A DNA stretch of 64,000 nucleotides from an uncultured Gammaproteobacteria bacterium (GTDB lineage Bacteria > Pseudomonadota > Gammaproteobacteria > Competibacterales > Competibacteraceae), in contig CAVQSJ010000036.1 in assembly GCA_963715845.1 (NCBI GenBank), positions 47,710-111,709 on the forward strand, in the 5' to 3' direction. This document shows, piece by piece, positions 5,022 to 23,055 of this stretch; position 1 is the first letter of the stretch; the number at the start of each line of letters is the position of its first letter. The translations under genes were made by a program, and so were the position numbers. The notes under the pieces are model-generated. The model had not been told where the DNA came from and ran no database searches. It was given only the letters and a program-made list of their open reading frames with translations.

Positions 5022-5825
5022 ATGCTGAAAATCGCTACCTGGAACGTAAATTCCCTGAACGTGCGTCTGCCGCAAGTGTTGGACTGGCTGCGCGACCGAC
5101 AGCCGGATATTCTGGCCCTGCAGGAAACCAAGCTCACCGATCCCGATTTCCCGACGCTGGACATCGCCAATGCTGGCTATCAGTCCGTGTTCGCTGGGCA
5201 GAAGACCTACAACGGCGTAGCGATTCTCAGCCGACTACCGGCTGGCGAAACGGTCACCGACCTGCCGGGACTGGACGATCCGCAGCGGCGGGTGCTGGGC
5301 GCGACCATCGACAGCGTGCGGGTGTTGAACCTCTACGTCCCCAACGGTCAATCCGTCGGTTCCGACAAGTACGCCTACAAGCTCGCTTGGCTGGATCGAC
5401 TTGCCACCTGGCTGGAAACCGAACTGGCCCACCATCCCCGGCTGGTGGTGCTGGGCGATTTCAACATCGCGCCCGAAGACCGCGACGTGCACGATCCCGC
5501 CGCCTGGGCCGGCCAAGTGCTGTGTAGCGACGCGGAACGAGTCGCGTTCCGCCGGTTGCTGGACCTGGGGTTTAAGGACACTTTCCGCCTGTTTCCGCAA
5601 GAAGAGCATGCCTTTAGCTGGTGGGACTATCGCGCCGCCGCCTTTCGCCGCAATCTCGGCCTGCGCATCGACCACATTCTCGCCAGTCCGGCGCTGGCGG
5701 CGGATTGCACGGCCTGTGGGGTGGACAAGGCCCCGCGCCGGCTGGAACGCCCGTCCGATCACGCGCCGGTGATCGCCGAATTCGCAATCACTGACCTCTG
5801 CCCCCCTGTGACCCCTGACCCCTGA
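5022..5825 (+). CDS. xthA: exodeoxyribonuclease III
   Basis: [16 protein letters not shown]...LALQETK...SDHAPV is diagnostic of the ExoIII/AP endonuclease family. Confidence 0.9.
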
Positions 5826-5840
5826 CCCCTGACCCCTCAA
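5800..5840. repeat. heptamer tandem repeat (TGACCCC)x4 covering the xthA stop codon
   Basis: The sequence gtgacccctgacccctgacccctgacccct is seen directly. It encodes the C-terminal TPDP tail of XthA and supplies its stop codon. Confidence 0.6.
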
Positions 5841-5842
5841 TC

Positions 5843-8431
5843 ATGGAACATCGTCCCCGCAACGTGCTGGTGACCGGCGGTGCCGGTTTCATCGGTTGCA
5901 ACTTCGTTCGCCACCTTCTGGCCACCGACCCCGATGTTTGCATCGTCACCCTCGACCTGCTGACTTACGCCGGCTCGCTGGACAACCTGCGTGACCTGCC
6001 CGACCCCGCCCGGCATGTCTTCGTTCAGGGCGACATCTGCGACCGGCCGCTGGTGGATTATCTGCTGCGCGAGCACGCTATCGATACCATCGCCCATTTT
6101 GCCGCCGAAAGCCATGTTGACCGTTCCATCACCGGGCCGGCGGCTTTCGTCGAAACGAATCTGGTCGGCACTTTCACCCTGCTGGAAGCAGCACGTCAGT
6201 TTTGGTTGATCGAAAAAACCCTGCCGGATATGCCCGTCCGCTTTCATCACATTAGCAGCGTGACGGGCGACACGCCGGTACTGGTGCGCAACAGGCAAAC
6301 TGACGAAGTGGTCTTGCAACCGATCGTCGATCTCGAAGCGCAAAACCTGGCCGATCTCGATATCCTCACCATGACGAATGATTATCAGGTTGGGTTTCAT
6401 CCCATCGGGAGCTTTATCAAGCATCCGGTGGATCGGGTCTATGAAATTACTTATAACGGCGGGGGCCGGATTCGGGCGACGGAATCCCACTCCGTATTCG
6501 TTTTCACCGAGCAGGGCATCATCGCCAAACCCTCCAACCAGTTGGAGATCGGCGACCTGTTAATCACGTTTGTGGGCCAAGACGCATCCAGTCGCCAACC
6601 CCACGTTTTTGACCTGAGCCAAAAACTCTCTGAATATTCCTACCAAGGGTTGGATGTAGCTCTGGAGAGGCGACAACATATTTTGCAAACCGTCGCCGTT
6701 GGCGGGAGATTCTCCCGCTCCAGCCTGAACGCCCAACTGGCTCCGGATATCAACGGTACCGCCGCCTACCGTTTGTTTGAAAAACTGGCTGAAGAGGGAT
6801 TCCTGACCCAGGAAAACGGTCTTTATCAGGCCACGGCCGCGACGCTCCAAGACTCCACGCTCCAAGCCGGGCGTCAGCGGTGGCAACTGATGAAAAACAA
6901 GCTTCACATCCCTTACGATACCTTGGCCGTAACACCCCTGCTGATGGAAGTGTTCGGCCTTTATCTGGCCGAGGGACATGGAGCCCGCACGCCGGCGGAA
7001 ATGCAAAGCTCCAATCGGAATGTCACGTTCACCATTGGATTGAACGAAACCCGGCAACTCGAATTGTTGCGGCGCTGCGCCGAGCAGGTTTTCGGCATTC
7101 ATGCCTCGGTTAGCCAGCGATCTTCCACCTACCAAGTGACCTATTCATCACGCTGGGTTCATGCGCTGTTTGCCGAATTTGGATGCACGGCGGAGACCAA
7201 GCGCCTGCCCGGATGGATATGGTCTCAACCGAAAGAATTCATCGTGGCGTTTTTCAAAGGTTACGAAGGAGATGCCACCTTGAAACGCGACGGACGGCGC
7301 TATTACACGACCGTCAACCGGCAGCTTGCCGAGAGCCTGCTATGGCTGGCTCGCCTAAACGATCTGAATGCATTGATCAGCAGTCGCACCATTCAGCAGG
7401 TTGCTGGCAAAGTTCCGCCGGGCATTACCGTCAGTCGCAAGCGGGAATTCTATGACTTGCAAATCACCGCCGAGAGTGCCCGCGATCATGACCACGATCA
7501 TTGGCGATCACCCATGGCACGCTGTATCCCCAATTCGTTTGTGATGAACCTGTTGGGATGTCGGTCCAATGGTGGCGTCCACGTTCACCGCAAGCCACTG
7601 ATCAGCAAGGGGCAGGTGCAACGACTGGCGGATACCTTCAAGTCCGTCCCGCCCAACCTCGCGGCGTTGCTCAATTCACCGATTGGTGTCGCTCAGGTGA
7701 AGAGCATCGAAAAAATCGAGGGGGCCACCATGGTCTATGACATTTCGGTGCCGGGCAACGAAAAGTTCTTTGGGGGTAACGTGCCCTGCCTGTTGCACAA
7801 CACCGACGAGGTGTACGGCACGCTGAAACGCGGCGACCCGCCGTTCACCGAAACCACGCCCTACGGACCCAATTCGCCCTACTCCGCCTCCAAGGCCGGT
7901 TCCGACCACCTGGTGCGGGCCTATTTCCACACCTACGGCCTGCCGGTGGTCACCACCAACTGTTCCAACAACTACGGCCCCTTTCAGCACGGCGAGAAAT
8001 TCATCCCCACGGTGATCCGTTCCTGCCTGCTGCAAAAGCCGATTCCCGTCTATGGCGACGGCAGCAATATCCGCGACTGGCTCTATGTCGAGGACCATTG
8101 CCGGGGCATCGAGGCGGTGATCCGGCGTGGCCGGCCGGGCGAAACCTACAACATCGGCGGTTGCAACGAATGGGCGAACATCAACATTGCCAAACTAATC
8201 TGCACGCTGTTGGACGAACGACGCCCGGAACACGCCCCGCACCAACGGCTGATCAGCTTCGTCACCGACCGGCTCGGCCACGATTGGCGCTATGCCATCG
8301 ACGCTGGCAAGATGGATCGGGAATTGGGCTGGCGACCTCGGGAGACGTTCGCTACCGGCATCGCCAAAACCGTGGACTGGTACCTGCAACGCCACGCCGC
8401 CGATCTCAATCACCCCGAACCGAAACCATGA
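5843..8431 (+). CDS. rfbB: dTDP-glucose 4,6-dehydratase precursor interrupted by an intein (347-aa extein plus 515-aa intein)
   Basis: N-extein: [11 protein letters not shown] Rossmann motif ... FHHIS. C-extein: TDEVYG...[15 protein letters not shown] (the YxxxK motif) ... The combined extein length is typical of RmlB. The gene overlaps the next gene by ATGA. Confidence 0.85.
6257..7801 (+). mobile_element. intein with a LAGLIDADG homing-endonuclease domain, inserted in the HIS|TDEVYG catalytic motif of RmlB
   Basis: The intein starts [10 protein letters not shown] (block A, Ser1), has a TxxH block B (ATESH), two LAGLIDADG motifs (GLYLAEGHG and FFKGYEGDA), and ends VPCLLHN followed by a +1 Thr. 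Its length, 1545 nt, is a multiple of 3. Confidence 0.75.
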
Positions 8432-11332
8432 CCCATCCCGCCTTTCAGCATTTGCGCAGCCATCCCGTTCCCGCCCTGCGGCTGGAGTTCCAGGAATACC
8501 GTCACAGCGCCACCAGCGCCAGACATATCCATCTGGCCGCCGACGATCAACATAACGCCTTCATGGTGGCATTCCTGACCGTGCCGCAAGACTCGACCGG
8601 CGTGGCCCACATCCTTGAGCACACCGCCCTGTGCGGCAGCCAGCGCTACCCGGTGCGCGACCCGTTCTTCATGATGATCCGCCGTTCGCTCAACACCTTC
8701 ATGAATGCTTTTACCAGCAACGACTGGACCGCCTACCCGTTCGCCAGCCAGAACAAAAAGGATTTCAACAACCTGCTGGACGTGTATCTGGACGCGACGT
8801 TTTTCCCGTTGCTGGACGAACGCGATTTCGCCCAGGAAGGCCACCGGCTGGAGTTCGCCAAGCCCACCGATCCCGATTCGGAACTGGTGTTCAAAGGGGT
8901 CGTGTTCAACGAGATGAAAGGTGCGCTGAGTGCGCCGGTACAACGGCTGGGACTGGCGCTGCAAAGCCGGCTGTTCCCCACCACCACGTATCATTACAAT
9001 AGCGGTGGCGATCCTGATGCGATTCCCGATCTCACTTACGAACAACTCAAGGCGTTCCACGCCCGCCACTACCACCCGTCGAACGCCATCTTCCTGACTT
9101 ACGGCGACATCCCCGCCGCCGAGCATCAAGAACGCTTCGAGACGCAGATTCTCAACCGGTTCCAAGCAATGAAGCTGGATTTGGCCATCCCCGATGAACG
9201 GCGCCATGCCGCGCCGGTCGTCGACTTGATTCATTACCCGCTGGACGGCGCCGACGACCTGCACGACCAAACTCATATCGTACTGGGCTGGCTGCTGGGG
9301 CCGATCACCGACCCGCTGGCAACGCTGCGGGCGCGGCTGTTGAGCGACGCGCTGCTGGACAACAGCAGTTCGCCACTACGGCACGCGCTGGAAACTTCCG
9401 AACTTGGCGCCGCGCCGTCGCCGATGTGCGGTTTCGATACCTCCACGCGCGAGGCCACCTTCGTTTGCGGCTTGGAAGGCTCCAACCCCGAACACGCCGA
9501 AGCGGTCGAAGCGTTGGTGTTCGACGTGCTGCAACAAGTCGCCGTCGAGGGCGTCCCGCAAGAGGCGGTGGACGCCGCCCTGCATCAACTGGAATTGAGC
9601 GAGCGGGAAATCACCGGGGACGGTTTTCCCTACGGCCTGCACTTGCTGATGGAAGCCCTCACCCCAGCGATTCACGGCGGCGATCCCGTCGCCGCGCTGG
9701 ACAGCGATCCGCTCTTGGAGCAGTTGCGGACGGAAAGCCGGGCAGTCAGATTTCATTCCGCGACTCGCCCGGCAACTGCTGCTGGAAAATCCGCACCGGG
9801 TACGGCTGACCATGGCCCCGGACCCGGAACTGAGCGCGAAACAGGCGGCGGCCGAGCAACAAAAACTGGCGACCATCCGCGCGGCGCTGGCCGAGGCCGA
9901 CCAAACCCGCATCGTCGTCCAGGCCCAGGCGCTGGCCGAACGCCAGCAACAGCAGGACGATCCCGAATTGTTGCCACGCGTCGGCCTGGAAGACGTGCCG
10001 CCGGACTTGAAAATCGCCGAGGGCATCGCCCGCCCGGTCGGCGCTTTGCCCGCCCATTGGTACGCTCAGGGCACCAACGGCATGGTCTACCTGCAAGCCG
10101 TTCTCGATCTGCCGGCGCTGGAATCCGACGAACTGGATTTGCTGCCACTGTTCTGCGCCTGTCTGACCGAAGTGGGCAGCGCGGGCCGCGATTACCGGAC
10201 CACCCAGGCCCGGCAGGCGGCGGTGACCGGCGGCCTCAGCGCCCGCGCCAATGTAAGGGGCGGGGTCGATGACGTACAGCAGGCCAAGGGCGTGCTGGTC
10301 ATCGCCGGCAAGGCGCTGGCCCGCCATCACGCCGACCTGTCCGAACTGCTGTGGGAAACCCTGACCAGCGCCCGTTTCGACGAACTACCCCGGTTGCGGG
10401 AACTGGTCGCGCAAATCCGCGCCCAGCGCGAGGAGTCCATTACCGACCACGGCCACATGCTGGCGCTCGCCGCCGCCAGCGCCGGGCTGAGTCCGGTGGC
10501 GGCGCTGAATCATCGCTGGGATGGGTTGCACGGTTTAAAACAACTCAAGACGCTGGACGATGCTCTGGACAATCCTGAAGCGCTGCGCGCGTTCGCCGAG
10601 CGGTTGGCACGGCTGCGGGACCGGTTGCAACACGTGCCTCGGCAATTGCTGGTCGTCAGCGAGGCCGAACGGCAGGACGTCATCGCCGAGGCGCTGGCCG
10701 CCCGCTGGCGGAATGGTCAGGCCGCGCTGGAACCGTTCGCGCTCGCCGTGCCGGAACCGCAACCGTCGCGACAGGGGTTTCGGGTCAACACCCAGGTCAA
10801 TTTCTGCGCCAAGGCTTACTCCACCGTCGCGCCGAACCATCCCGATGCACCGGCGCTGCAGGTACTGGGCGACTTCCTGCGCAACGGCTATCTGCACCGG
10901 GCCATCCGCGAACAGGGTGGCGCCTACGGTGGTGGTGCGGGCTATCACCCCGATAGCGGGGCATTCCGCTTCTATTCCTACCGCGATCCCCGACTGGCCG
11001 ATACGCTGGCCGATTTCGACCTGGCGCTGGACTGGCTGCAAACCCACAACCATCCAGCGCGGACCCTGGAGGAAGCCATTCTCGGCATCATCGCCGCCAT
11101 CGACAAGCCCGGCTCGCCCGCCGGCGAGGCGATCAGCGCCTTCTTCGGCACGCTGTTCGGCCGCACCCCGGAACAGCGCCGCGCTTACCGGCAACGAGTG
11201 CTGGAGGTCACGCTGGACGATCTCAGGCGGGTCGCGGCGGCTTACCTGCAACCGGAACGGGCCAGTTGCGCGGTCCTGAGCGACGCGCGGACACTGGCGG
11301 AACAGAAAAACTGGACTATCATCGCGGTTTGA
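8428..11332 (+). CDS. M16-family zinc metallopeptidase (PreP/insulinase-like) whose reading frame is broken near 9735
   Basis: HxxEH zinc motif ([11 protein letters not shown]). The track shows two overlapping ORFs, 8098..10272 and 9812..11332, which join through a +1 shift between LEQLRTE and [33 protein letters not shown]. Confidence 0.7.
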
Positions 11333-11362: not shown

Positions 11363-13816
11363 ATGCGTAAACCCTCCTCGCCACCACGCATCCGTCTCGA
11401 TGAACTGCCCACCCGGGAACTGATCGCCCGTGGCGAAACTCTGCTGTCGGCCCATGACTACAAGGATGCCATCGAGGTCTACAAGCTGCTGCTGAAGCGC
11501 GAACCGCAAGCCGAGGCTGGCTGGCGCGGATCGTTGGCCACGGCGTATCTGGAACGGGCTAAGCAACTGGCCCAGAAAGCGATGTACCGGGAAGCCATCG
11601 TGCTCTGGGAGAATATCCCCAATCTGTGCGGTCAAGCTCCCCAACCCAACCTGTACATCGACTGGCTGCTCCGCACCGGCCAGTACGCCAAGGCGATCCG
11701 CGCCTATGTCAGTCATGCGGCCGCGTTGCCCGCCGCCGATCTCGTCGAACCGGAAACCCTGCTTGCCGCGCTGGTCCTGGCCGGACAAAAGGAGGGTCTC
11801 CAGGCGCTGTCCCCGGAAGCGTCGCTATGCCGACAGTTACCCTCGGCCCAGACCGCCCTGCGCGCCTATTGCCAGGGCGAGGTCGAAGCCGCGGTGCGCG
11901 AGCATCTGCAAAACATCCCCATTCGCTCGCCCTACCGGGATTTGCGCCAAGCGCTCGCGGGCCTGCTGAAGCTGGAAACCGACCCAGCCGGCGCCCTGCC
12001 CCTGATCGAGCGCATTCCCCCGACTTCCCCTTACCACGGCATCGCCGAAATCGTGCGCGCCTGCGCCGCCAGCGAACCCACTCGGGCAATACTGGCGCTC
12101 GAACCGTCCCAGCGCGAACTGGCCGGCGGCCTGCTCGGTCTGGATCAGCGCCAGCTCAAACTGCTCCGGGAATGGGCGCGGCTCGGCGAAAAAACCAGCG
12201 ATAAAGCGATGTTCGACTTCATCACCGCCAACCTGGCGGCGTTCGACCGCGAACAGGCCCGGCGGGCCTGTCTGGCGCTGCTTCCCGCCCATACGCCGGG
12301 GCAGTCCGTCTACACCAAGCTGTTCGGGCCGCTGCCGCCGTTCGAGGCGCATCGTCTCAAGGCGCTGCGGGCGGAACGCGATCACGATTTCAGCCGAGCC
12401 CTGCTCGACTGGCGAGCCTGCGTCGATCTGCTGAGCCAGGATGCCACCAACCCGGATAGCCGGTTGATGGCGGCACTCGTCCTGCGCCACATGGCGCAAC
12501 TGTCGGAGCGGGAGGAACCCGACTGGTACGAACCCCCTAATACCGCTTCTTATCTGGAAGAAAGCTTGCGGTTCGATCCGGATGATCGCGACACCTATTT
12601 GCAACTGGCCAAGCTGCACCGGCAGGCCGGCGATGATAAGGAGTACCACCAGTGGGTGGAACGCGCTGTCAAGCAATTCCCCGACGACCCCCAGGTGCTG
12701 TTGGCCGCGGTGGAAACCGCCACCGCCCGCAAGGCTTACAAGAAAGCCGCCGGTTTCGCCACGCGGGTATTGGAATTGGACCCGATCAACAGCAAGGCCC
12801 GCAATATTCTGATCAACTCTTATCTGGCCCACGCCCGTAAACAGATTCTGGCCGGTAAATACGCCCTGGCGGAAAAGGAACTGGACAGCGCCGGCCAACT
12901 GGAACGGGACAACGCCCGCAGTGGCGTCGTCGAACTCAACCGGGGCCTGCTGGCTTATCAGCAACACCAGCGCGAGCGCATGAAGCACTGGCTCCAGGAA
13001 GGTGCCCGCCTCGCCGGCAGCCCCCTGCTGGCGTGGCTGCGGCTGGCGGTGGAAGCCACCCGTCTGCGGCTGGAACCGGCCGACTTCCAGCGCGATCTCG
13101 AACTCGACGACCCGCGCAAACTGACCGTCGACCGCGCCGATCTGCTGGCCCTGACCCGACTGATCAACGCCTACCGGGAAGAAGGCGTCCCCGATCTCGG
13201 CGCGGCCCTGGAAGACGTGGAAAAGCCGCTGAAACGCGCCATCAAGCAACTGACCGATGAGGACGACCTGCTGTCGGTCTGCGAATGTCTGCACCAGGCG
13301 CCGCATCACGAGTTGCTGGAGTACGTCGCCACCCACGCGCTCGACCGCCAGCCGGGCCGGCCCCTGTTCGTCTACTACCAGATTTTTGGCCGCGCCGAAG
13401 GCGAGATTGACGACGTGAAGGATCGCGACTACGACCGCTTGAAGCACGCCCTGAAACAGGCCGCCGCCGCCAAGGACCACCGCGCCGCCACTCTGATCGA
13501 CCGGTTCCTCAGCCAGGGACCGTTTTCGTTGCCCTTCCCCAGGCCAAGCAGCGGCCCGTTGCCGCTGCCGCCCAAGCTGCGAAATGACATGGAAGACCTC
13601 CGCAAGGAACTGGAGCGGCTACCGCCGGCGCTGCGGGATCGAATGCTGGACCAGATACTGGACTCCTTGCCGCTCGACGACGATTTCCCGCCCGAAGCGC
13701 AAAGGGCCCTCATGAAGGCCCTGTTGCTTGGCGGTGGGAGTCTTGAGAACCTGCTGGATGAGTTACCGGACTTCCCGCTGCCGGGCCGGGGCGGACGCAA
13801 ACACCGCCGGAGATGA
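11363..13816 (+). CDS. large TPR-like repeat protein, hypothetical, first gene of the Hsp70 operon
   Basis: 817-aa ORF with good high-GC codon usage, a helical repeat-rich composition and a C-terminal Pro-rich, Arg-rich tail. Its stop overlaps the next gene's start. Confidence 0.6.
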   Translation: MRKPSSPPRIRLDELPTRELIARGETLLSAHDYKDAIEVYKLLLKREPQAEAGWRGSLATAYLERAKQLAQKAMYREAIVLWENIPNLCGQAPQPNLYIDWLLRTGQYAKAIRAYVSHAAALPAADLVEPETLLAALVLAGQKEGLQALSPEASLCRQLPSAQTALRAYCQGEVEAAVREHLQNIPIRSPYRDLRQALAGLLKLETDPAGALPLIERIPPTSPYHGIAEIVRACAASEPTRAILALEPSQRELAGGLLGLDQRQLKLLREWARLGEKTSDKAMFDFITANLAAFDREQARRACLALLPAHTPGQSVYTKLFGPLPPFEAHRLKALRAERDHDFSRALLDWRACVDLLSQDATNPDSRLMAALVLRHMAQLSEREEPDWYEPPNTASYLEESLRFDPDDRDTYLQLAKLHRQAGDDKEYHQWVERAVKQFPDDPQVLLAAVETATARKAYKKAAGFATRVLELDPINSKARNILINSYLAHARKQILAGKYALAEKELDSAGQLERDNARSGVVELNRGLLAYQQHQRERMKHWLQEGARLAGSPLLAWLRLAVEATRLRLEPADFQRDLELDDPRKLTVDRADLLALTRLINAYREEGVPDLGAALEDVEKPLKRAIKQLTDEDDLLSVCECLHQAPHHELLEYVATHALDRQPGRPLFVYYQIFGRAEGEIDDVKDRDYDRLKHALKQAAAAKDHRAATLIDRFLSQGPFSLPFPRPSSGPLPLPPKLRNDMEDLRKELERLPPALRDRMLDQILDSLPLDDDFPPEAQRALMKALLLGGGSLENLLDELPDFPLPGRGGRKHRRR

Positions 13817-14127
13817 TGATCATGCCGAATCCGTTCGCCGTGCTGGGCATCGCCGAAACCGCCGCCGACGACGCCATCAAGAAAGCATATTTGCAACAGG
13901 TGCGCGAACACCCACCGGAGCGGGACTCCGAACGCTTCCAGACCATCCGCGCCGCCTACGAGGCTATCAAGACCCGCCAAGACCGGCTGCGCTACCGCTT
14001 GTTCGGGCAGGAAGCACCGGATTTGGCCGGGCTGGTGGCGTCCACCCTGCAACCCGGCCCGCGCCGCCGCCCGGCCGAGCAACAGTTGCGGCAACTGCTG
14101 CTCGCTCGCCTGACTGGCCAGAAGTAA
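13813..14127 (+). CDS. small J-domain (DnaJ-like) co-chaperone
   Basis: NPFAVLGIAETAADDAIKKAYLQQVREHPPERDSERFQTIRAAYEAI; the J-domain is seen directly; an HPD-equivalent HPPE is present. Confidence 0.7.
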   Translation: MMIMPNPFAVLGIAETAADDAIKKAYLQQVREHPPERDSERFQTIRAAYEAIKTRQDRLRYRLFGQEAPDLAGLVASTLQPGPRRRPAEQQLRQLLLARLTGQK

Positions 14128-14136
14128 AGACCCCAC

Positions 14137-14874
14137 ATGAATATCGAAACCAAGGAACAATTGCTGGAGCGCTTCCGCGCCTACCTGGACGAACTGCCCG
14201 AGGCCGTCCCGACCGAGGCAACCGAAGCCGACCGGCGGACCGACCTGTACTCGCTGTTCGCCGAACTGGTGGCGCTGAAAACCGAAGTCCGGCTGGAATC
14301 GCGCCAGGTGAAAACCGTGCTGGATGAATTCAAATCCGTCTTCGACACTCTGCAAGCCAGCCAGAGCCAACTCGGCGGCGAACTGGACCGCGCGCGCGGC
14401 GCGGTGGCCGAACAGCGGCGGGCAGCCCTGAAACCCCTGCTGCTGGAATTGGTGGACCTGCGCGACCGTCTGGAAGCCGGCCTGCGCGTCCTGCAGGGCT
14501 ATCGGCCCTCGCTGCTGGGCCGGCTGCTGGGGGTGGCCCGGCGGGAACGGACGCTGTTGCAAGCTGTTGTCCAGGGCCAGGACATCAGTCTGCGCCGGCT
14601 GGACCAGATGCTGAGTAACCAGCAAGTGGCCGCCCTGCCCGCCCAGGGCAACCCGCTCGACCCCCACACCATGCGCGCCGCCGAGTTGGACCAGCGGCCG
14701 GACCTGGCCAACGGTATCGTCACCGGGGAACTGCGCAAGGGCTACACCTGGCAGGGCGAGTTGCTGCGGCTGGCGGAAGTCAAGGTCAACCGCAAGCCGG
14801 AACCGCCCACCAGCGTCGATACTCCACCTGATGTCTCCTCACCAATCCAATGCGAGTCGCAAATTCATGACTGA
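14137..14874 (+). CDS. GrpE-like nucleotide-exchange factor (divergent)
   Basis: A long coiled-coil N-terminus and a C-terminus (GIVTGELRKGYTWQGELLRLAEVKVN) resembling the GrpE beta-domain. The stop overlaps the Hsp70 start. Confidence 0.55.
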   Translation: MNIETKEQLLERFRAYLDELPEAVPTEATEADRRTDLYSLFAELVALKTEVRLESRQVKTVLDEFKSVFDTLQASQSQLGGELDRARGAVAEQRRAALKPLLLELVDLRDRLEAGLRVLQGYRPSLLGRLLGVARRERTLLQAVVQGQDISLRRLDQMLSNQQVAALPAQGNPLDPHTMRAAELDQRPDLANGIVTGELRKGYTWQGELLRLAEVKVNRKPEPPTSVDTPPDVSSPIQCESQIHD

Positions 14875-16621
14875 AAAAATCATCGGCATCGATCTGGGCA
14901 CCACCAATTCCGAAGTGGCGGTGGTGGAAAACGGTCGCGTCACCGTCATCGACGCCAGTCCCGGCAACCCGATCCTGCCCTCCTTCGTCGGTCTCGCCGA
15001 CGACGGCTCGATTCTGGTGGGGGAACCGGCCAAGAATCAGTACGTCCTGTATCCGGAACGCACCATCAAATCCATCAAGCGGCGGATGGGCAGCGCCGAC
15101 CGGGTGCAAATGGGCGACGACAGCTACACGCCCCAGGAAATCTCCGCCATCATTCTGCGGCGATTGAAAGCCATCGCCGAGGCGCATCTGGGCGAAACGA
15201 TCCCCAAGGCGGTAATCACGGTTCCCGCCTATTTCTCCGATGCCCAGCGCCAGGCCACCCGGGAAGCCGGAGAAATCGCCGGACTGGAAGTGGTGCGGAT
15301 CATCAACGAACCGACCGCCGCCGCGCTGTCCTATGAAGCCAACCATCAGGGCCACAAGCGGGTGCTGGTCTACGACCTGGGCGGCGGCACCTTCGACGTG
15401 TCGGTGGTCGGCATCGAGGACAACGTGGTCGAGGTGCTGGCCAGCCACGGCAACAACCATCTGGGTGGCGATGATTTCGACGCCAAGATCGTCGAACACA
15501 TCGTCGGGCATCTGAAAGAACAGGGAGCCGATCCGAATTCCTCGCGCCGGGCCATGGCGCGTATCACCCGGGCGGCGGAAATCGCCAAGATTGCGTTGTC
15601 GGACCAGCCCTACTACCGGATCGAGGAGGAATACCTGCTGGAAAAAGCGGGCGCGCCGATCAACCTGTCACTGGAACTGTCCCGCCATGAATACGAGGAC
15701 ATGATCGCCGGCTACATCGACGAAACCCTGGAAGCCGTGCATGTGGCGCTGAAGGGCGCCAACCTGACCGTGTCGGACATCGACGAAGTGCTGCTGGTGG
15801 GCGGTGCCACCCGCACGCCGCTGATCGGCCAGCGGCTGGAGGAGGACCTGGGTCTGCTGGTGCGGGCGGAGGTCAACCCGGAACTGTGTGTCGCCACCGG
15901 CGCGGCCATCCAGGCGGCGATGCTGGCCGGCGAGACGGTCTCGGCGGTGCTGGTGGACGTCACTCCCTATACCTTCGGCACCAGCGCCTTGAGCGAAATG
16001 AACGGCATGCCCTACCCCTTCGTCTACGTGCCGCTCATCCATAAGAACACGCCGATCCCGGTCACCAAGAGCGAGGTGTTCTACACCTTGCGCGATCATC
16101 AGGAAGCGGTGAACGTGCATGTTTACCAGGGCGAGGATCCGGATGCGCTGAACAACATCCAAATTGGTCAGTTTAACGTGGAGAACCTGAGCAAAGCGCC
16201 GGCCGGCAACCCGATCATCCTTCAGTTCGCGCTGGACTTGAACGGCATCATGCAGGTGTCGGCCCGCGAGAAGAACACTGGGCTGGAGAAATCCATCCGC
16301 ATCGACAACGTGCTGTCCCGCTTCCAGGAGGGCGAGTTGGAAACAGCGCGGGCGCGGGTCAACGCCCTGTTCGCGGGCGAGGAAATGGCGGCGCAGCCTG
16401 CCGGGACGGCCGGTGGCGCCACCGAGCATCAGTTGACGGCGCAGGCGCGGGCCCTGGTGGAAAAGGCCGAACGGCTGCTGGACAGCGCCGCCGAGGACGA
16501 TCGCGAGGAGATGATCAATCTGATCGAAGCGATCACGGACGCACTGGCTGGTGGCGATTTCACCGCGTTGTCCGCGCCGATGGCCGCGCTGTCGGACATC
16601 CTGTTCTATCTGGAGTCCTGA
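14867..16621 (+). CDS. Hsp70-family ATPase, HscC-like paralog (not the canonical DnaK)
   Basis: IIGIDLGTTNSEVAV, DLGGGTFDVS and VLLVGGATRTPL are diagnostic of the Hsp70 nucleotide-binding domain; the substrate-binding domain is shortened and divergent. Confidence 0.85.
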   Translation: MTEKIIGIDLGTTNSEVAVVENGRVTVIDASPGNPILPSFVGLADDGSILVGEPAKNQYVLYPERTIKSIKRRMGSADRVQMGDDSYTPQEISAIILRRLKAIAEAHLGETIPKAVITVPAYFSDAQRQATREAGEIAGLEVVRIINEPTAAALSYEANHQGHKRVLVYDLGGGTFDVSVVGIEDNVVEVLASHGNNHLGGDDFDAKIVEHIVGHLKEQGADPNSSRRAMARITRAAEIAKIALSDQPYYRIEEEYLLEKAGAPINLSLELSRHEYEDMIAGYIDETLEAVHVALKGANLTVSDIDEVLLVGGATRTPLIGQRLEEDLGLLVRAEVNPELCVATGAAIQAAMLAGETVSAVLVDVTPYTFGTSALSEMNGMPYPFVYVPLIHKNTPIPVTKSEVFYTLRDHQEAVNVHVYQGEDPDALNNIQIGQFNVENLSKAPAGNPIILQFALDLNGIMQVSAREKNTGLEKSIRIDNVLSRFQEGELETARARVNALFAGEEMAAQPAGTAGGATEHQLTAQARALVEKAERLLDSAAEDDREEMINLIEAITDALAGGDFTALSAPMAALSDILFYLES

Positions 16622-16902
16622 TGGAACGCTGCCCGGTCTGCCGCGCCCGCTCCAAGGGCGATCCGGTCTGCTATCGCTGCGGCGCGGACTTGAGCGCCCT
16701 GCTGGCCATTGAAGCCGAAGCCGCAACGCTGGAACGAAGGGCCGCGGTCCTGCTGGGCGCCGGCGAACTGCTCGAGGCGCGCCAGGCGGCCGAACGCGCG
16801 CTGACGCTCCAGTACAGTCCGTTGGCGTTCGCCGTGCGGGACTTCGCCCGCAAGGAACTGGTGGCCAACGAGGCGCGGCTATTCGAGCGGTTGTTGCAAT
16901 AA
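16621..16902 (+). CDS. small zinc-ribbon protein translationally coupled to the Hsp70 gene
   Basis: CPVC-x9-CYRC motif; TGATGG stop/start overlap with the Hsp70 gene. Confidence 0.5.
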   Translation: MERCPVCRARSKGDPVCYRCGADLSALLAIEAEAATLERRAAVLLGAGELLEARQAAERALTLQYSPLAFAVRDFARKELVANEARLFERLLQ

Positions 16903-16920
16903 CGCCCGCGAGAACAAGCT

Positions 16921-17604
16921 TCAATCGGCCGCTTGCCGCAGCACTTTCATGAAAGCCTGGTGTTCCGCCGTCTGCAGCGAGCACTGCACGGCGGCCAGCA
17001 CCCGCGCCAGATCGCCATCGAGCAGGGCTCGGACATCGAGCGCCAGCCCCGGAAAAATCCGGCTGCGTAGCAACCCATCCGTTCCAGGCTCAAGCGGCTG
17101 GTACTCACCGTCCTCCAGAACAAACCAAAGCATCCGCTTTTCGCGCACCAGCCACACCAGATATTCCCGTACCCCGTTGCGGCGATACACCTTGCGCTTG
17201 TCGTGCAGGTCGTGGGAGGCGCTGGTCGAGGCGATCTCGACGATCAGTTCGGGAGCGCCTTCCAGATAATCATCCTGGCTGATGCGAGACTGGCCGCCCG
17301 CCCGTTCCGGCAGACGCAACAGAGCGTCGGGCTGAAATTCGTTGTCGGCGTCCAATCGTAGGGTAGCGTTGTCGGCCAGGCGAACGCCGGGAGTGGCGGC
17401 CCAGTAGGTCGCCAACCAACCCATGACAAGCGCGTGCGGCTCAGCATGTTGTTCGAAATGTAGCGGCGAGGGCATGAAAACGGTTCCTTCGATCAATTCG
17501 GCCTTCTTGAGTCGCGGCATGGCGTGATACCGCCGTTCGAATTCCTGGCAGGTCAAATGGTCGCCGTTTTCCAAAGGTGGGATGTCGAGTGCCAAAGTGT
17601 GCAT
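16921..17604 (-). CDS. Uma2-family (DUF820) PD-(D/E)XK putative endonuclease
   Basis: The LTCQEFERRYHAM...AELIEG...PELIVEIASTS pattern is typical of Uma2/DUF820. Confidence 0.8.
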   Translation of the reverse strand: MHTLALDIPPLENGDHLTCQEFERRYHAMPRLKKAELIEGTVFMPSPLHFEQHAEPHALVMGWLATYWAATPGVRLADNATLRLDADNEFQPDALLRLPERAGGQSRISQDDYLEGAPELIVEIASTSASHDLHDKRKVYRRNGVREYLVWLVREKRMLWFVLEDGEYQPLEPGTDGLLRSRIFPGLALDVRALLDGDLARVLAAVQCSLQTAEHQAFMKVLRQAAD

Positions 17605-17825: not shown

Positions 17826-18593
17826 ATGGAAATCTTCGTTTATCACACGCCAGACCAAGTTCCGGACTTAAGCAAAAAGGCCCGCAAGGGTGGCCTCAGC
17901 CTCGATCTGCCCGCCTGCGCCATCGTGATCGACGTATTGCGCGCCACCACCACCATGGCGACGGCATTGCAGTCCGGCGCGGAAGCGATTCAGGTGTTCG
18001 ACGACCTCGATGAACTGTTTCGTCTCAGCAAGCGCTGGCCGGTCGAACGCCGCCTGCTGGCTGGCGAGCGCGGCGGCGAAAAACTGGAGGGTTTCGATCT
18101 CGGCAATTCGCCGTCGGAATGCATGCCCGCGCGGGTCGGTGGCAAGCGACTGTTCATGAGCACCACTAACGGCACCCGCGCTCTGGAACGAGTACAGCGA
18201 GTCCCGATTCTGCTGACGGCTTCACTGACCAACCGCGCGGCGGTGGTACGCTATCTGTTGCAGGAGCAACCGCACACGGTCTGGATCGTGGCGGCTGGCT
18301 GGCGCGGCGGCTTCTCGCTGGAGGACACCATCTGTGCCGGGGCCATCGCCTGCGCGCTGAGCGTCGAACGCGGCAGCGACTGCGCGGGGGACGACGAATC
18401 CATCGCCGCCATGGCGCTGTTCGAACAGTGGCAGAACCGGCTGCCGCAACTGCTACGCTATGCCCACCACGGGCGTGGCCTGGCGGCCTTGGGCTGCGAA
18501 GAGGATTTGGACTATTGCGCCCGGCTCGACAGCGTCAACGTGGTGCCACTGCAAACCGAGCCGGGGGTGTTAAAGCCGGCGCTGTTGGATTGA
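17826..18593 (+). CDS. 2-phosphosulfolactate phosphatase (ComB) family protein
   Basis: AIVIDVLRATTTMATAL...GERGG...GFDLGNSP are ComB-family motifs. Confidence 0.75.
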   Translation: MEIFVYHTPDQVPDLSKKARKGGLSLDLPACAIVIDVLRATTTMATALQSGAEAIQVFDDLDELFRLSKRWPVERRLLAGERGGEKLEGFDLGNSPSECMPARVGGKRLFMSTTNGTRALERVQRVPILLTASLTNRAAVVRYLLQEQPHTVWIVAAGWRGGFSLEDTICAGAIACALSVERGSDCAGDDESIAAMALFEQWQNRLPQLLRYAHHGRGLAALGCEEDLDYCARLDSVNVVPLQTEPGVLKPALLD

Positions 18594-21045: not shown

Positions 21046-21658
21046 CGTCCGGTTTCCTTAAACTGCCGGCGTATCTGAAGCTGTGAACGCTGGCTCGGTC
21101 GGAAATCAGTCACTTGCCTGAATTGAAAAAATTTGATTCCCGACCAATATGCTTGGTTGCATTGCATCATGGTTTCTGCTATAGGAAAATAACATTAGGA
21201 TTGAAACATAAAAACCAAACCTGCCGCGAGACAGGGGCAGAAAGTCACGGGTCTCGAACACAGACAGCCGGACTGCCGAGGATGACCAGCGTGAAGGTCG
21301 TACGAGGTAGTGCGGCTTTTTTGTTGTTGGATGAAGAAGAGTCTTTTCGATGAGACTGGCTGGGGATACTGCGATTCGGCTTTAGATGAGACTCCTAAGT
21401 GTCGCTGGCCGTCACTCCATTTGCTCTTCCCGGCTAGCGTGCTGCATAACTAAACCGTCGGAGTGTTATGCGGAAACCATATAATTATTTGTTAGGGCGG
21501 GTGGATTTTTCTCTCCATCCCGACCAACTGTCTGGGGTGGTAAGAACCGGCGCGTGGGGTGCGATAAGAGCGCCCGGCCGGTAGCAACGTGAACCCGCTG
21601 TGCGCTGTTTCAAGGCAGGGCGGCAGTTCGGAAACAGTGGTTTCTTGAAACCGCGTCA

Positions 21659-21719: not shown

Positions 21720-21843
21720 GACAGACCTGAACATCGCTAAGATAGACTTTGGACACGTTGCTGAAAGCCCCGCAGATCGGGTTCGAAATAAGGTTAGAAC
21801 GAGAGTACTAATCGCTGGTAAATTCAACGAAGGAGAATTGACA

Positions 21844-23055
21844 ATGAACATAAAAATCACTGCTACCGCCTCCGGAAGCCTCACTCCCCCGACGGCACCA
21901 CCGACTGACACTGTTACAAACGGAGATTTTCTGATCGGACCAAATCCTGGAGGCGCGATAACGGGTGATGGCCAAGATGAGGAGACAAGCTGGACATTCA
22001 AGTTTGCTGGTGACCCGAATTTTCCGCTTTTTTCACCTTCGCGGTCGTTGACATCCGCGCTTCTCACTTTGACTCTGACACCAAAAGACGGTTTGATCAC
22101 TACCGACGGCGTTTTGATAGAAGGGCTGGGAATCATTGGTGGTTCTACTCCTAATGCTCCAGAGATCCATGGCCTCCCCGTCGGTGTCACTAACACCATC
22201 CACATGCAGTTGCTCAACAGATTGCCTGGATACAGTTCTACTGCCATCCTTGGGGTCTTCAGCGCGGGGGGTGGCCAAATCCCAATGCGCTATGCCGACG
22301 ACTCTATCGTCTCTTCGGCCAAGCTCGAGCTGATTCAAGAATCCCCGGCTTTACAGTACGCAGCGAAATTCGTTTGCGGAAAATCGGCTGGTGAGGTTGT
22401 GGCGCCCGGAGTCTATTTCACCGCAGTTAACGTACACAATCCGACCTACACAGCGATCCGCTTTCGCATAAAGATCGCGGTCGCGTTGCCAGGGCTGAAG
22501 CCCGGCCCTGTGTCCAAGTTCTTTGATGCTAAACTCGGCCCGGATCAAGCGCTGGAAATCGACTGCCCGGACATCTTTAAGTACGCTGAAACTGAGGCCG
22601 ATTTCCTGAAGGGATTTGTCGTTATCGAGAGCGACGTCGAACTTGACGTGGTCGTCGTGTATACGGCGGCCGGCAGGGACGGACAGGTCGAAACGCTGCA
22701 CACTGAACGCGTCTCTCCACGACGCCTTGAACTTGGGCTGCCGGATTTGATCCCCGTTCCCGATGAAAATGGTTCCTTTTGCAAACGGAAAGATTTAACG
22801 TTAACGGTCACCGTCAAAAATCAAGGAACCGGCGGGGCAGGACCCTCAGTTACAGAGGTCGATTTCTTTGCTTTTGGTAAGGTTTCCATGCCAACGCCGC
22901 CATTGGGCCCAGGCGCGTCAGTGGATCTCCTCTTCCCAATACGACCTGGCTGCTTTAACCCAGATTGTGAGTTTCAAATTACCGTCGATGCCAACAACCA
23001 GGTAAATGAATCCAATGAAGGAAACAATATCGCCAAGGGTATATGCTTAGGCTAG
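21844..23055 (+). CDS. cassette 1: large hypothetical protein with a C-terminal CARDB (cell-adhesion-related) domain
   Basis: The C-terminus DLIPVPDENG...TLTVTVKNQGTGGAGPSVTEVDFF...VDANNQVNESNEGNNIA matches the CARDB consensus (...E.nE.NN). The N-terminal ~300 aa have no recognisable family. GAAGGAG RBS. No obvious signal peptide. Confidence 0.7.
   Translation: MNIKITATASGSLTPPTAPPTDTVTNGDFLIGPNPGGAITGDGQDEETSWTFKFAGDPNFPLFSPSRSLTSALLTLTLTPKDGLITTDGVLIEGLGIIGGSTPNAPEIHGLPVGVTNTIHMQLLNRLPGYSSTAILGVFSAGGGQIPMRYADDSIVSSAKLELIQESPALQYAAKFVCGKSAGEVVAPGVYFTAVNVHNPTYTAIRFRIKIAVALPGLKPGPVSKFFDAKLGPDQALEIDCPDIFKYAETEADFLKGFVVIESDVELDVVVVYTAAGRDGQVETLHTERVSPRRLELGLPDLIPVPDENGSFCKRKDLTLTVTVKNQGTGGAGPSVTEVDFFAFGKVSMPTPPLGPGASVDLLFPIRPGCFNPDCEFQITVDANNQVNESNEGNNIAKGICLG

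What the first reader, a model, noticed from the sequence alone, without database searches (positions are those of the whole stretch)
6257..7801. Full-length LAGLIDADG intein inserted in the catalytic HIS|TDEVYG motif of dTDP-glucose 4,6-dehydratase (RfbB/RmlB)
The 862-aa ORF is a 347-aa RmlB with a 515-aa insertion exactly between Ser and Thr of the conserved HISTDEVYG active-site motif. The insert has Ser1 in block A (SVTGDTPV), a TxxH block B (ATESH), two LAGLIDADG motifs, and a terminal HN followed by a +1 Thr. Known inteins are concentrated in replication and repair proteins. An intein in a nucleotide-sugar dehydratase of the rhamnose/LPS pathway, using a Ser1/Thr+1 nucleophile pair, is unusual. 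The host enzyme's activity would depend on splicing.
Basis: seen in the sequence. Interest (0 to 1): 0.75.

Follow-up and report, generated by a model that had tools for sequence, protein, structure and literature searches.

The report
Homing intein inside rhamnose-pathway dehydratase RmlB
The gene for a sugar-nucleotide enzyme (RmlB) is interrupted, right at its catalytic threonine, by a textbook self-splicing, self-copying protein element (an intein with a homing endonuclease); the element is real and looks active, but it is an ordinary example in a host gene that I could not find described.

Summary
ORF 5843-8431 (+) encodes 862 aa. Residues 139-653 (nt 6257-7801) are a 515-aa in-frame insert between Ser and Thr of HIS|TDEVYG.

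With the insert removed, the 347-aa protein is a bona fide dTDP-glucose 4,6-dehydratase. It scores 470 bits on TIGR01181 (cutoff 365) and aligns without a gap across the junction to Salmonella RmlB.

The insert is a canonical class-1 intein. It has Ser1, the Ser1-specific KH "NX" motif, block B TxxH, a C-terminal HN and Thr+1. It carries a nested two-motif LAGLIDADG endonuclease and a probable winged-helix insert. Pfam Intein_splicing passes its threshold, and a confident AlphaFold model matches PI-PkoII, TliVMA, PI-PfuI and I-DmoI.

The same allele occurs in about 37 protein clusters, from Competibacteraceae, Chloroflexota and hyperthermophilic archaea. More than 120 closest RmlB relatives, in the same xthA-rmlB-preP locus, lack it.

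Purifying selection (dN/dS 0.11 overall, 0.07 in the endonuclease) and intein/host divergence that disagree both point to a splicing-competent, recently mobile element.

The "unusual" claims are overstated. Ser1/Thr+1 inteins and inteins in sugar-nucleotide enzymes are already known. Verdict: a new member of a known kind, of modest interest.

The parts
5843..6256 (+). N-extein of rmlB (138 aa). Contains the Rossmann NAD-binding part (GGAGFIG) and ends ...FHHIS.
6257..7801 (+). Intein, 515 aa, Ser1 to Asn515.
   Evidence: Pfam PF14890 above its cutoff; AF2 plus Foldseek match to PI-PkoII, TliVMA, PI-PfuI and PI-SceI; the same boundaries in 34 homologues.
6257..6280 (+). Block A, SVTGDTPV. Ser1 is the first nucleophile.
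   Evidence: Ser1 is invariant in 34/34 alleles at the RmlB/Gmd site (33 RmlB, one Gmd).
6419..6424 (+). K55-H56, the 'NX' motif histidine typical of Ser1 (oxyester) inteins.
   Evidence: His56 is invariant. It aligns with the SRH of the MjaTFIIB intein. The motif is defined in PMC10189870.
6476..6490 (+). Block B, ATESH (Thr75, His78).
   Evidence: His78 is invariant.
6662..6835 (+). Probable winged-helix DNA-binding insert between the Hint N-lobe and the endonuclease (residues ~136-193).
   Evidence: Weak Pfam HVO_A0261_N match, E=1.4e-4, below its cutoff. The AF2 secondary structure is H-H-H-strand-strand. This is the least conserved intein segment.
6950..6982 (+). LAGLIDADG motif 1, [11 protein letters not shown] (catalytic Glu239).
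   Evidence: G-Y-AEG is invariant. It aligns with GYYVSEG of PI-PkoII.
7250..7276 (+). LAGLIDADG motif 2, FFKGYEGDA (catalytic Asp339).
   Evidence: GYEGD is invariant. It aligns with GYFIGDG of PI-PkoII.
7730..7801 (+). Blocks F and [25 protein letters not shown] (His514, Asn515).
   Evidence: YD, GGN, LLHN are invariant. NCBIfam intein_Cterm scores 19.8 against a cutoff of 15.6.
7802..7804 (+). The +1 Thr codon (ACC). It is the second splicing nucleophile and also the catalytic Thr133 of the RmlB [ST]DE...YxxxK signature.
7802..8431 (+). C-extein of rmlB (209 aa plus stop). Starts TDEVYG and contains YSASK.

Best explanation
**What it is.** The chromosomal rmlB gene (dTDP-glucose 4,6-dehydratase) of a Competibacteraceae-like gammaproteobacterium carries a class-1 intein with a nested LAGLIDADG homing endonuclease. 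The intein sits exactly between Ser132 and the catalytic Thr133.

**Splicing (inferred from conserved chemistry).**
1. The 862-aa precursor folds its Hint domain.
2. Ser1 makes an N-to-O acyl shift, helped by Thr75/His78 and the Ser1-specific His56.
3. The hydroxyl of Thr+1 attacks that ester.
4. Asn515 cyclises, helped by His514, and releases the 57-kDa intein.
5. An O-to-N shift restores HIS-TDEVYG, giving an active ~39-kDa RmlB.

The precursor is expected to be inactive, because the insert separates the NAD-binding half from the Thr-Asp-Glu catalytic residues.

**Homing (inferred).** The freed intein acts as a site-specific endonuclease. It cuts intein-free rmlB alleles at the conserved HISTDEVYG-coding site, and recombinational repair then copies the intein into the cut allele.

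**What is shown here and what is not.** Shown: anatomy, fold, family-wide conservation, purifying selection, patchy distribution, and intein/host divergence that disagree. Not shown: actual splicing and actual DNA cleavage.
For: **Anatomy and fold.**
- The boundaries and all motifs are present.
- Pfam Intein_splicing is above its gathering score.
- The AF2 model (pLDDT 86.7) matches intein homing endonucleases: PI-PkoII E=1e-27, TliVMA 8e-21, PI-PfuI 3e-19, and I-DmoI for the endonuclease core.

**Host protein.**
- The spliced extein passes the TIGR01181 equivalog cutoff, 470 against 365 bits.
- It aligns without a gap to RmlB 1G1A across the junction, giving T133/D134/E135.
- The [ST]DE...YxxxK signature is taken from PMC8987622.

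**Conservation.**
- 34 alleles at the RmlB/Gmd site (33 RmlB, one Gmd) share the site. Ser1, His56, His78, Glu239, Asp339, His514 and Asn515 are conserved.

**Selection, window against Ca. Contendobacter odensis.**
- Intein dN/dS is 0.11.
- The LAGLIDADG domain is 0.07.
- The exteins are 0.05.

**Mobility.**
- More than 120 RmlB clusters at 84-90% identity are intein-free.
- Intein-free alleles sit in the same xthA-rmlB-preP locus.
- The window's nearest host relatives (rmlB dS 0.46) lack the intein. The more distant C. odensis (host dS 1.7) carries an intein with dS of only 0.68.
- Across phyla the inteins are 52-59% identical while their hosts are ~50% identical. Within a group the inteins are generally more diverged than the exteins.
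- The intein often has lower GC than its flanks.
- The -1 Ser codon is AGY in all nine bacterial intein-bearing alleles and TCN in 5/5 empty Competibacteraceae alleles. This fits co-conversion of flanking sequence during homing.
Against: - No experimental evidence of splicing or DNA cleavage exists for any member.
- No Pfam LAGLIDADG model hits the window's own sequence at E<0.1. Only the archaeal-type homologues carry a precomputed PF14528 hit.
- Extein dS values are close to saturation, so the dS contrast is semi-quantitative.
- The Ser-codon contrast rests on only five empty alleles.
- A second, intein-free rmlB elsewhere in the genome cannot be excluded from a 64-kb window.
- No rmlA, rmlC or rmlD gene lies next to this gene.
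Confidence: 0.85

Rival explanations
1. The intein still splices, but its endonuclease no longer cuts DNA. On this view it is a stranded passenger that persists only because imprecise loss would destroy RmlB.
For: - No Pfam LAGLIDADG hit for the window's sequence.
- Inactive endonuclease domains in otherwise intact inteins are documented, for example the VMA inteins in PMC8966425 (listed).
- Most Competibacteraceae lack the element. That pattern could also arise from vertical descent in a few lineages.
Against: - Both catalytic acidic residues and the surrounding motifs are invariant across 28-85% identical homologues.
- The endonuclease domain is among the most constrained parts of the intein, with dN/dS 0.07 and 93% identity.
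- Intein and host divergences disagree.
Confidence: 0.2
2. The intein has been co-opted as a post-translational switch. Splicing would be conditional (temperature, pH, substrate or stress) and would gate dTDP-rhamnose supply for envelope or exopolysaccharide synthesis.
For: - The insertion is at the catalytic Thr, so activity strictly requires splicing.
- Conditional splicing has been proposed for other inteins (PMC4760082).
- The same clade repeatedly occupies the equivalent catalytic site of GDP-mannose 4,6-dehydratases.
Against: - Insertion at catalytic, highly conserved sites is the general rule for selfish inteins and needs no regulatory explanation.
- Most close relatives do without the intein.
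- The splice junctions have no catalytic cysteines, so the known redox-type control is unlikely.
- No data bear on splicing kinetics.
Confidence: 0.06
3. The insert has inactivated the gene, so this is a non-splicing insertion and rmlB here is a pseudogene.
For: - The neighbouring preP gene carries a frameshift in this window. Either some gene decay or some sequence error is therefore present locally.
Against: - The 2.6-kb reading frame is intact.
- All splicing residues are conserved.
- The exteins are under strong purifying selection, dN/dS 0.03-0.07.
- The same architecture is kept in dozens of lineages.
Confidence: 0.03
4. The architecture is an assembly or binning artefact that joins an archaeal intein to a bacterial rmlB.
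For: - The window probably comes from a metagenome assembly.
- Some homologues labelled 'Marinimicrobia' closely resemble alleles from Methanothermococcus and Thermococcaceae, which suggests binning errors elsewhere.
Against: - The junctions are exactly in frame.
- Independent assemblies show the same structure: Ca. Contendobacter odensis Run_B_J11, several Competibacteraceae MAGs, and the complete genome of Methanocaldococcus sp. 28A.
- The intein's GC3 (0.66) is close to the host's (0.72-0.80).
Confidence: 0.01

Closest known systems
PI-PkoII / PI-TkoII (Tko Pol-2 intein, PDB 2CW7)
   Same: - Best structural match: Foldseek E=1e-27, TM 0.65.
- Sequence match over the LAGLIDADG domain.
- Ser1 intein with oxyester chemistry (PMC10189870).
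- Large multi-domain intein with a two-motif LAGLIDADG endonuclease.
   Different: - The host is the archaeal family-B DNA polymerase, not an SDR enzyme.
- Only ~17% identity.
- The accessory DNA-binding domains differ.
MjaTFIIB / MvuTFIIB inteins (PDB 5O9J, 5O9I)
   Same: - Closest solved Hint domain by sequence: E=3e-13 over both Hint lobes.
- Cited as a functionally characterised Ser1/Ser+1(Thr+1) intein.
- Shares the (K/R)H NX motif and a ...LHN C-terminus.
   Different: - The host is a transcription factor in methanogens.
- The crystallised forms are engineered mini-inteins without the endonuclease.
UDP-glucose dehydrogenase inteins of Euryarchaeota (for example Mja UDP-GD)
   Same: A precedent for inteins in nucleotide-sugar metabolism rather than in replication or repair proteins (PMC4760082 Table).
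   Different: - A different enzyme family and a different site.
- Not shown here to be related to this intein.
Sister alleles of the same intein clade (SV[TS]GDTP...P[IV]LLHN). Hosts: GDP-mannose 4,6-dehydratase, RFC small subunit, FlaI/VirB11-like ATPases, CDC48-like AAA ATPases, cysteine desulfurase.
   Same: - The same block A and block G signatures, with Ser1 and Ser/Thr+1.
- The GMD alleles sit at the homologous [ST]SE catalytic motif of a paralogous SDR.
   Different: - Different host proteins.
- 23-35% identity.
- The GMD site is either the same position (P0038, QMS|SSEMFG) or shifted one residue (L019, P0196, P0201, P0209: QASS|SE[MI][FMY]G).

Membership tests
Class 1 intein (Hint/HINT splicing domain) | N-terminal nucleophile (Cys/Ser) in block A | tested here: met
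   Ser1 in SVTGDTPV, invariant in 34/34 alleles.
Class 1 intein (Hint/HINT splicing domain) | Block B TxxH | tested here: met
   T75-E-S-H78. His78 is invariant.
Class 1 intein (Hint/HINT splicing domain) | C-terminal His-Asn followed by a Cys/Ser/Thr +1 residue | tested here: met
   ...LLHN|T. HN is invariant. The +1 residue is Thr in all 33 RmlB alleles with resolved boundaries and Ser in the GMD alleles.
Class 1 intein (Hint/HINT splicing domain) | Hint fold / profile match | tested here: met
   PF14890 scores 53.7-56 bits against GA 35.8. TIGR01443 is above its cutoff and TIGR01445 just below, 23.6 against 24.5. Foldseek matches solved inteins.
Class 1 intein (Hint/HINT splicing domain) | In-frame insertion whose removal restores a colinear host protein | tested here: met
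   The spliced sequence aligns gap-free across the junction to RmlB 1G1A and to >120 intein-free orthologues.
Class 1 intein (Hint/HINT splicing domain) | Autocatalytic protein splicing | not testable with these tools
   Requires expression and detection of ligated exteins and the free intein.
Ser1 / oxyester ('cysteine-independent') intein subgroup | NX-motif histidine preceded by Lys/Arg, plus Ser1 and Ser/Thr+1 | tested here: met
   K55-H56. The His is present in all 34 alleles. It aligns to the SRH of MjaTFIIB. The motif is defined in PMC10189870.
LAGLIDADG homing endonuclease (monomeric, two-motif) | Two LAGLIDADG helices, each ending in an acidic residue followed by Gly or a small residue | tested here: met
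   GLYLAE239G and GYEGD339A, invariant. Aligned to the PI-PkoII motifs.
LAGLIDADG homing endonuclease (monomeric, two-motif) | LAGLIDADG fold / profile match | tested here: inconclusive
   The fold is met: Foldseek matches I-DmoI (E~2e-5, TMt 0.6-0.69) and intein endonucleases. No Pfam LAGLIDADG model hits the window protein at E<0.1. PF14528 is precomputed on the archaeal-type homologues P0031-35.
LAGLIDADG homing endonuclease (monomeric, two-motif) | Site-specific cleavage of the empty allele, and homing | not testable with these tools
   Only indirect support: patchy distribution, intein dS below host dS, and the flanking Ser-codon switch.
dTDP-glucose 4,6-dehydratase (RmlB/RfbB, TIGR01181) | Equivalog HMM above the curated cutoff | tested here: met
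   470.2 bits against a cutoff of 365.1 for the spliced extein.
dTDP-glucose 4,6-dehydratase (RmlB/RfbB, TIGR01181) | GxxGxxG NAD site and the [ST]DE...YxxxK catalytic signature | tested here: met
   GGAGFIG is present. T-D-E is restored by splicing. Y-S-A-S-K is present.
dTDP-glucose 4,6-dehydratase (RmlB/RfbB, TIGR01181) | Enzymatic activity / role in the dTDP-rhamnose pathway | not testable with these tools
   No rmlA, rmlC or rmlD was found next to the gene. The xthA-rmlB-preP arrangement is the family-wide locus.

The most novel reading that the evidence does not exclude
This would be one member of an undescribed, currently mobile group of intein alleles. The group specifically targets the catalytic [ST][DS]E motif of nucleotide-sugar SDR dehydratases (RmlB, GMD and relatives). 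It would have crossed between hyperthermophilic archaea, Chloroflexota and Gammaproteobacteria. In the wastewater Competibacteraceae it would also act as a conditional switch on dTDP-rhamnose (envelope or exopolysaccharide) synthesis.
Probability: 0.06. Interest if true: 0.6.

Novelty: new member of a known kind. Interest (0 to 1): 0.33.

Why it matters
- **For intein biology.** It adds a metabolic, non-replicative host (RmlB, with sister alleles in GMD) to the catalogue. It is another clean case of an intein using the host's own catalytic residue as its +1 nucleophile.
- **For studying homing.** Filled and empty alleles at one syntenic locus occur in co-occurring activated-sludge bacteria (Competibacteraceae and Chloroflexota), with related alleles in archaea. 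This makes a convenient natural system for studying recent homing and cross-phylum or cross-domain spread.
- **For protein engineering.** A Ser1/Thr+1 intein from a mesophile could be useful where cysteine-independent splicing is wanted.
- **For annotation.** These genes are mislabelled 'GDP-mannose 4,6-dehydratase' and the intein is not flagged.
- None of this changes current understanding of how inteins work.

Tried and rejected
- **Exact-protein lookup of the window's ORF.** It is not on record, so the source record could not be named. The cluster lookup gave no name for P0001. The Competibacteraceae assignment rests on synteny and on 88-92% identity of neighbouring genes to Competibacter MAGs.
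- **Viral vector.** A scan of IMG/VR with the intein profile found only distant matches (22-34%) to the endonuclease domain alone, and no RmlB intein. There is no evidence for phage carriage.
- **Literature.**
  - intein + dTDP-glucose: 0 papers.
  - intein + '4 6-dehydratase': 0 papers (matching of the comma was not verified).
  - intein + rmlB/rfbB: only irrelevant co-occurrences.
  - Broader survey searches found no description.
  - The supplements of Novikova et al. are not held.
  - The part of the InBase Ser1 list that I read in PMC10189870 contains no RmlB or GMD allele.
- **Pfam LAGLIDADG models.** No hit on this sequence. The endonuclease assignment rests on motifs, PDB sequence alignment and fold.
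- **Second copy in the window.** tblastn with the extein and the intein found only the gene itself.
- **Pseudogene, non-intein domain insertion and assembly chimera.** Each was considered and rejected; see the rival explanations.
Full report
**1. The observation**

ORF 5843..8431 on the + strand encodes 862 aa. Translating 6257-7801 gives a 515-aa segment that begins SVTGDTPV and ends CLLHN. It is preceded by ...VRFHHIS and followed by TDEVYGTLK. Joining the flanks gives a 347-aa protein that contains HISTDEVYG.

- Ser1.
- ATESH at intein residues 74-78.
- Two LAGLIDADG-type motifs: [11 protein letters not shown] at 232-242 and FFKGYEGDA at 332-340.
- A terminal HN, followed by Thr+1.

**2. 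Is the insert an intein?**

- Pfam Intein_splicing (PF14890) hits the insert at 56 bits, and the whole ORF at 53.7 bits. The gathering score is 35.8. The Epimerase and GDP_Man_Dehyd models are each split into two stretches around the insert.
- NCBIfam intein_Cterm is above its cutoff. intein_Nterm is just below (23.6 against 24.5).
- Against PDB sequences, the Hint lobes match the MjaTFIIB and MvuTFIIB mini-inteins (E=3e-13). The central part matches the endonuclease of PI-PkoII (E=1e-8). The PI-PkoII motifs GYYVSEG and GYFIGDG align to GLYLAEG and GYEGDA.
- An AlphaFold2 model built on a 16-sequence intein alignment is confident (mean pLDDT 86.7, pTM 0.85).
- Foldseek against the PDB returns intein homing endonucleases first: PI-PkoII 2CW7 (E=1e-27, TM 0.65), TliVMA 7QSS, PI-PfuI 1DQ3, PhoVMA and PI-SceI. 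After these come mini-inteins for the Hint part and I-DmoI for the endonuclease core.
- No Pfam LAGLIDADG model hits this sequence at E<0.1. The endonuclease call therefore rests on motifs, alignment and fold.
- Residues ~136-193 form a helix-helix-helix-hairpin unit in the model. They give a weak, sub-threshold match to the winged-helix family HVO_A0261_N. This is probably an accessory DNA-binding domain, of the kind other large inteins carry.

**3. The host protein and the site**

- The spliced extein scores 470 bits on TIGR01181 (dTDP-glucose 4,6-dehydratase, equivalog, cutoff 365).
- It aligns without any gap across the junction to Salmonella RmlB (1G1A/1KEU/1KEW, E=6e-122). There, rfHHISTDEVYG corresponds to residues 127-138, so the junction lies between Ser132 and Thr133.
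- According to the nucleotide-sugar dehydratase review PMC8987622, dTDP/UDP-glucose 4,6-dehydratases are defined by [ST]DE...YxxxK. The Thr/Ser belongs to the SDR triad, Asp is the acid and Glu is the base.
- The intein's +1 nucleophile is therefore the catalytic Thr itself. The 515 aa separate the NAD-binding half from Thr-Asp-Glu.
- That the precursor is inactive is an inference, though a strong one.

**4. Relatives**

A search with the intein alone found 51 clusters.
- 37 of them are RmlB-type proteins; 33 have both junctions resolved by pattern matching and carry the intein at the identical site H(I/V)S|SV(T)GDTP...LLHN|TDEVYG. A further cluster (P0038) is a GDP-mannose 4,6-dehydratase with the intein at the homologous site.
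- Their labelled sources are Candidatus Competibacteraceae, other Pseudomonadota, Ardenticatenales, Anaerolineae, Caldilinea and 'Marinimicrobia'.

In the species-representative genomes, the same allele is present in the following:
- Ca. Contendobacter odensis Run_B_J11 (85% intein identity).
- A Pseudomonadota MAG (72%).
- Six Chloroflexota MAGs (50-62%).
- At 33-34% identity, archaea: Pyrodictiaceae, Desulfurococcales, Thermococcaceae, Methanothermococcus, and the complete genome of Methanocaldococcus sp. 28A.

Conservation across these sequences:
- Ser1, His56, His78, Glu239, Asp339, His514 and Asn515 are conserved.
- K55-H56 corresponds to the 'NX' motif. Pasch et al. 2023 identified this motif as specific to Ser1 (oxyester) inteins, and it aligns with the SRH of MjaTFIIB.

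More distant members of the same clade share SV[TS]GDTP...P[IV]LLHN and a Ser/Thr+1. They sit in the following hosts:
- GDP-mannose 4,6-dehydratases, at the homologous [ST]SE motif. The position is either the same or shifted by one residue.
- RFC small subunit.
- FlaI/VirB11-like ATPases.
- CDC48-like AAA ATPases.
- Cysteine desulfurases.
- Primase-like proteins.

An exhaustive profile search of 1.84 billion representatives found 151 proteins at E<=1e-30. Only a handful of these were end-to-end RmlB-type matches.

**5. Evidence that the element is functional and mobile**

The spliced extein has more than 120 intein-free relatives at 84-90% identity, 334-350 aa long. Nearly all are labelled Competibacter, Contendobacter or Competibacteraceae.

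Four distinct intein-free places show the same xthA-rmlB-preP arrangement as the window (L023 and L024 are two assemblies of the same Contendobacter place). One of them (L047) also shares the upstream sigma-54 regulator and Cache histidine kinase. So this is the orthologous locus, filled here and empty there. The DNA of the empty alleles is contiguous across CAC ATY TCN | ACC GAY GAG.

Nei-Gojobori estimates for the window against C. odensis:

| Region | dN/dS |
|---|---|
| Whole intein | 0.11 |
| LAGLIDADG domain (93% aa identity) | 0.07 |
| C-terminal Hint lobe | 0.06 |
| Exteins | 0.05 |

Both the intein, including its endonuclease, and the host enzyme are under purifying selection. This argues against a pseudogene and against a decayed endonuclease.

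Divergence of host and intein disagree.
- The window's rmlB, xthA and preP are closest (dS 0.46-0.6) to intein-free Competibacter genomes.
- Against C. odensis the host gene has pS 0.67 (dS ~1.7), but the intein has only pS 0.45 (dS 0.68).
- Against the Pseudomonadota MAG L002 the pattern is reversed: host dS is 0.75 and the intein is saturated.

Between Competibacteraceae and Chloroflexota the inteins are 52-59% identical and their hosts ~50%. Within each group the inteins are, with few exceptions, the more diverged partner.

In several loci the intein has much lower GC than its flanks, for example 0.45 against 0.59 in L002. In the window, GC3 is 0.66 for the intein against 0.72-0.80 for the exteins.

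The Ser codon immediately upstream is AGY in all nine bacterial intein-bearing alleles. It is TCN in five of five empty Competibacteraceae alleles. That is a two-step codon change, which fits co-conversion of flanking sequence during homing. The sample is small.

Together these results favour repeated horizontal gain over vertical inheritance with many precise losses. The extein dS values are near saturation, so the contrast is semi-quantitative.

**6. Mechanism**

The best-supported model is standard class-1 splicing through oxyesters:
1. Ser1 makes an N-O shift, assisted by Thr75/His78 and His56.
2. Thr+1 carries out transesterification.
3. Asn515 cyclises, assisted by His514.
4. An O-N shift follows.

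This regenerates HISTDEVYG and releases a 57-kDa monomeric two-motif LAGLIDADG endonuclease. The endonuclease targets the empty HISTDEVYG-coding site. Anatomy, fold, conservation and selection are shown here. Catalysis and DNA cleavage are inferred.

**7. Comparison with what is known, and novelty**

- Ser1 with Ser/Thr+1 is a recognised minority subgroup: 58 InBase inteins in 16 alleles, with PI-TkoII and MjaTFIIB characterised.
- Inteins in nucleotide-sugar enzymes have a precedent in UDP-glucose dehydrogenase.
- I found no paper that mentions an intein together with dTDP-glucose, RmlB or RfbB.
- The part of the InBase Ser1 list that I read contains no RmlB or GMD allele.
- Public protein names call these ORFs 'GDP-mannose 4,6-dehydratase' or 'NAD-dependent epimerase/dehydratase'. 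One JGI name does say 'intein/homing endonuclease'.

I therefore file it as a new member of a known kind: a canonical intein at an apparently undescribed insertion site and host. The points of interest are its cross-domain distribution, its recurrence in paralogous SDR dehydratases, and the good natural filled/empty contrast in activated-sludge bacteria.

**8. What led nowhere**

- The exact ORF is not in the contig index.
- IMG/VR holds no RmlB intein.
- No second rmlB or intein copy is present in the window.
- No rmlA, rmlC or rmlD lies nearby.

**Verdict**

The finding is real and correctly interpreted. It is an ordinary, apparently active homing intein in a host protein that I could not find described. 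Interest is about 0.33.

Noticed in passing
window 8428-11332 (+): The PreP-like M16C peptidase gene directly downstream of rmlB overlaps the rmlB stop codon (ATGA). It is split by a frameshift near 9749-9753 into 8428-9738 and 9812-11332. Orthologues in L023, L025 and L046 are single ORFs of 968-980 aa. This is either a sequencing or assembly error or a real pseudogene.
   Followed up: partly
window 11363-17604: A block encoding a TPR protein, a DnaJ-domain protein, GrpE, an Hsp70 and an Uma2-family endonuclease lies between preP and the 2-phosphosulfolactate phosphatase gene (17826-18593). In relatives L023 and L046 those two genes are adjacent. The non-canonical Hsp70 module therefore looks like an insertion in this lineage.
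   Followed up: partly
window 48397-49001 (-): Rfam finds a group II intron D1-D4 region (48831-49001, 95 bits) and domain V/VI (48397-48473, 44.5 bits) only ~360 nt apart. No reverse-transcriptase ORF is evident between them. A DDE transposase gene lies just upstream (49786-51144, -). This may be an ORF-less or truncated group II intron.
   Followed up: no
window 21204-21280 (+): A c-di-GMP-I riboswitch (49.5 bits, gathering score 35) lies upstream of a 405-aa ORF with a CARDB domain (21838-23055).
   Followed up: no
P0038; L019 8001-9266; P0193, P0195, P0196, P0201, P0209, P0228, P0242, P0249: Related inteins of the same clade interrupt GDP-mannose 4,6-dehydratases at the homologous catalytic [ST]SE motif. 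In some the intein sits before the triad Ser/Thr (QMS|SSEMFG). In others it sits one residue later (QASS|SEMFG). This suggests several independent invasions of SDR dehydratases.
   Followed up: partly
window 6254-6256; L001-L014, L023-L025, L046-L047 at the junction: The Ser codon just upstream of the intein is AGC/AGT in the window and in 12 of 14 other intein-bearing rmlB alleles. It is TCC/TCG in all five intein-free Competibacteraceae alleles examined. The two Ser codon classes are not linked by a single synonymous step, which fits co-conversion of flanking sequence during homing.
   Followed up: partly
window 5811-5838 (+): A heptamer tandem repeat, ACCCCTG x ~3.5, spans the end and stop codon of xthA, immediately upstream of the rmlB ATG. 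No obvious Shine-Dalgarno sequence lies in between.
   Followed up: no
window 8390-8431; L023 7035-7298; L025 7041-7298: In some relatives an 85-87-aa hydrophobic ORF ending ...EPKP separates rmlB and preP. In the window, and in the intein-free allele P0054/L046, that ORF is missing and RmlB itself ends ...EPKP. A deletion therefore appears to have fused the rmlB 3' end to the tail of the small ORF.
   Followed up: partly
P0002, P0172-P0174, P0180, P0182 (public records): NCBI names the intein-bearing RmlB proteins 'GDP-mannose 4,6-dehydratase' or 'NAD-dependent epimerase/dehydratase', without flagging the intein. Some RefSeq versions are N-terminally truncated (673 or 713 aa instead of ~835-855). 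Some contigs labelled 'Marinimicrobia' carry alleles nearly identical in type to those of Methanothermococcus and Thermococcaceae, which hints at binning errors.
   Followed up: no
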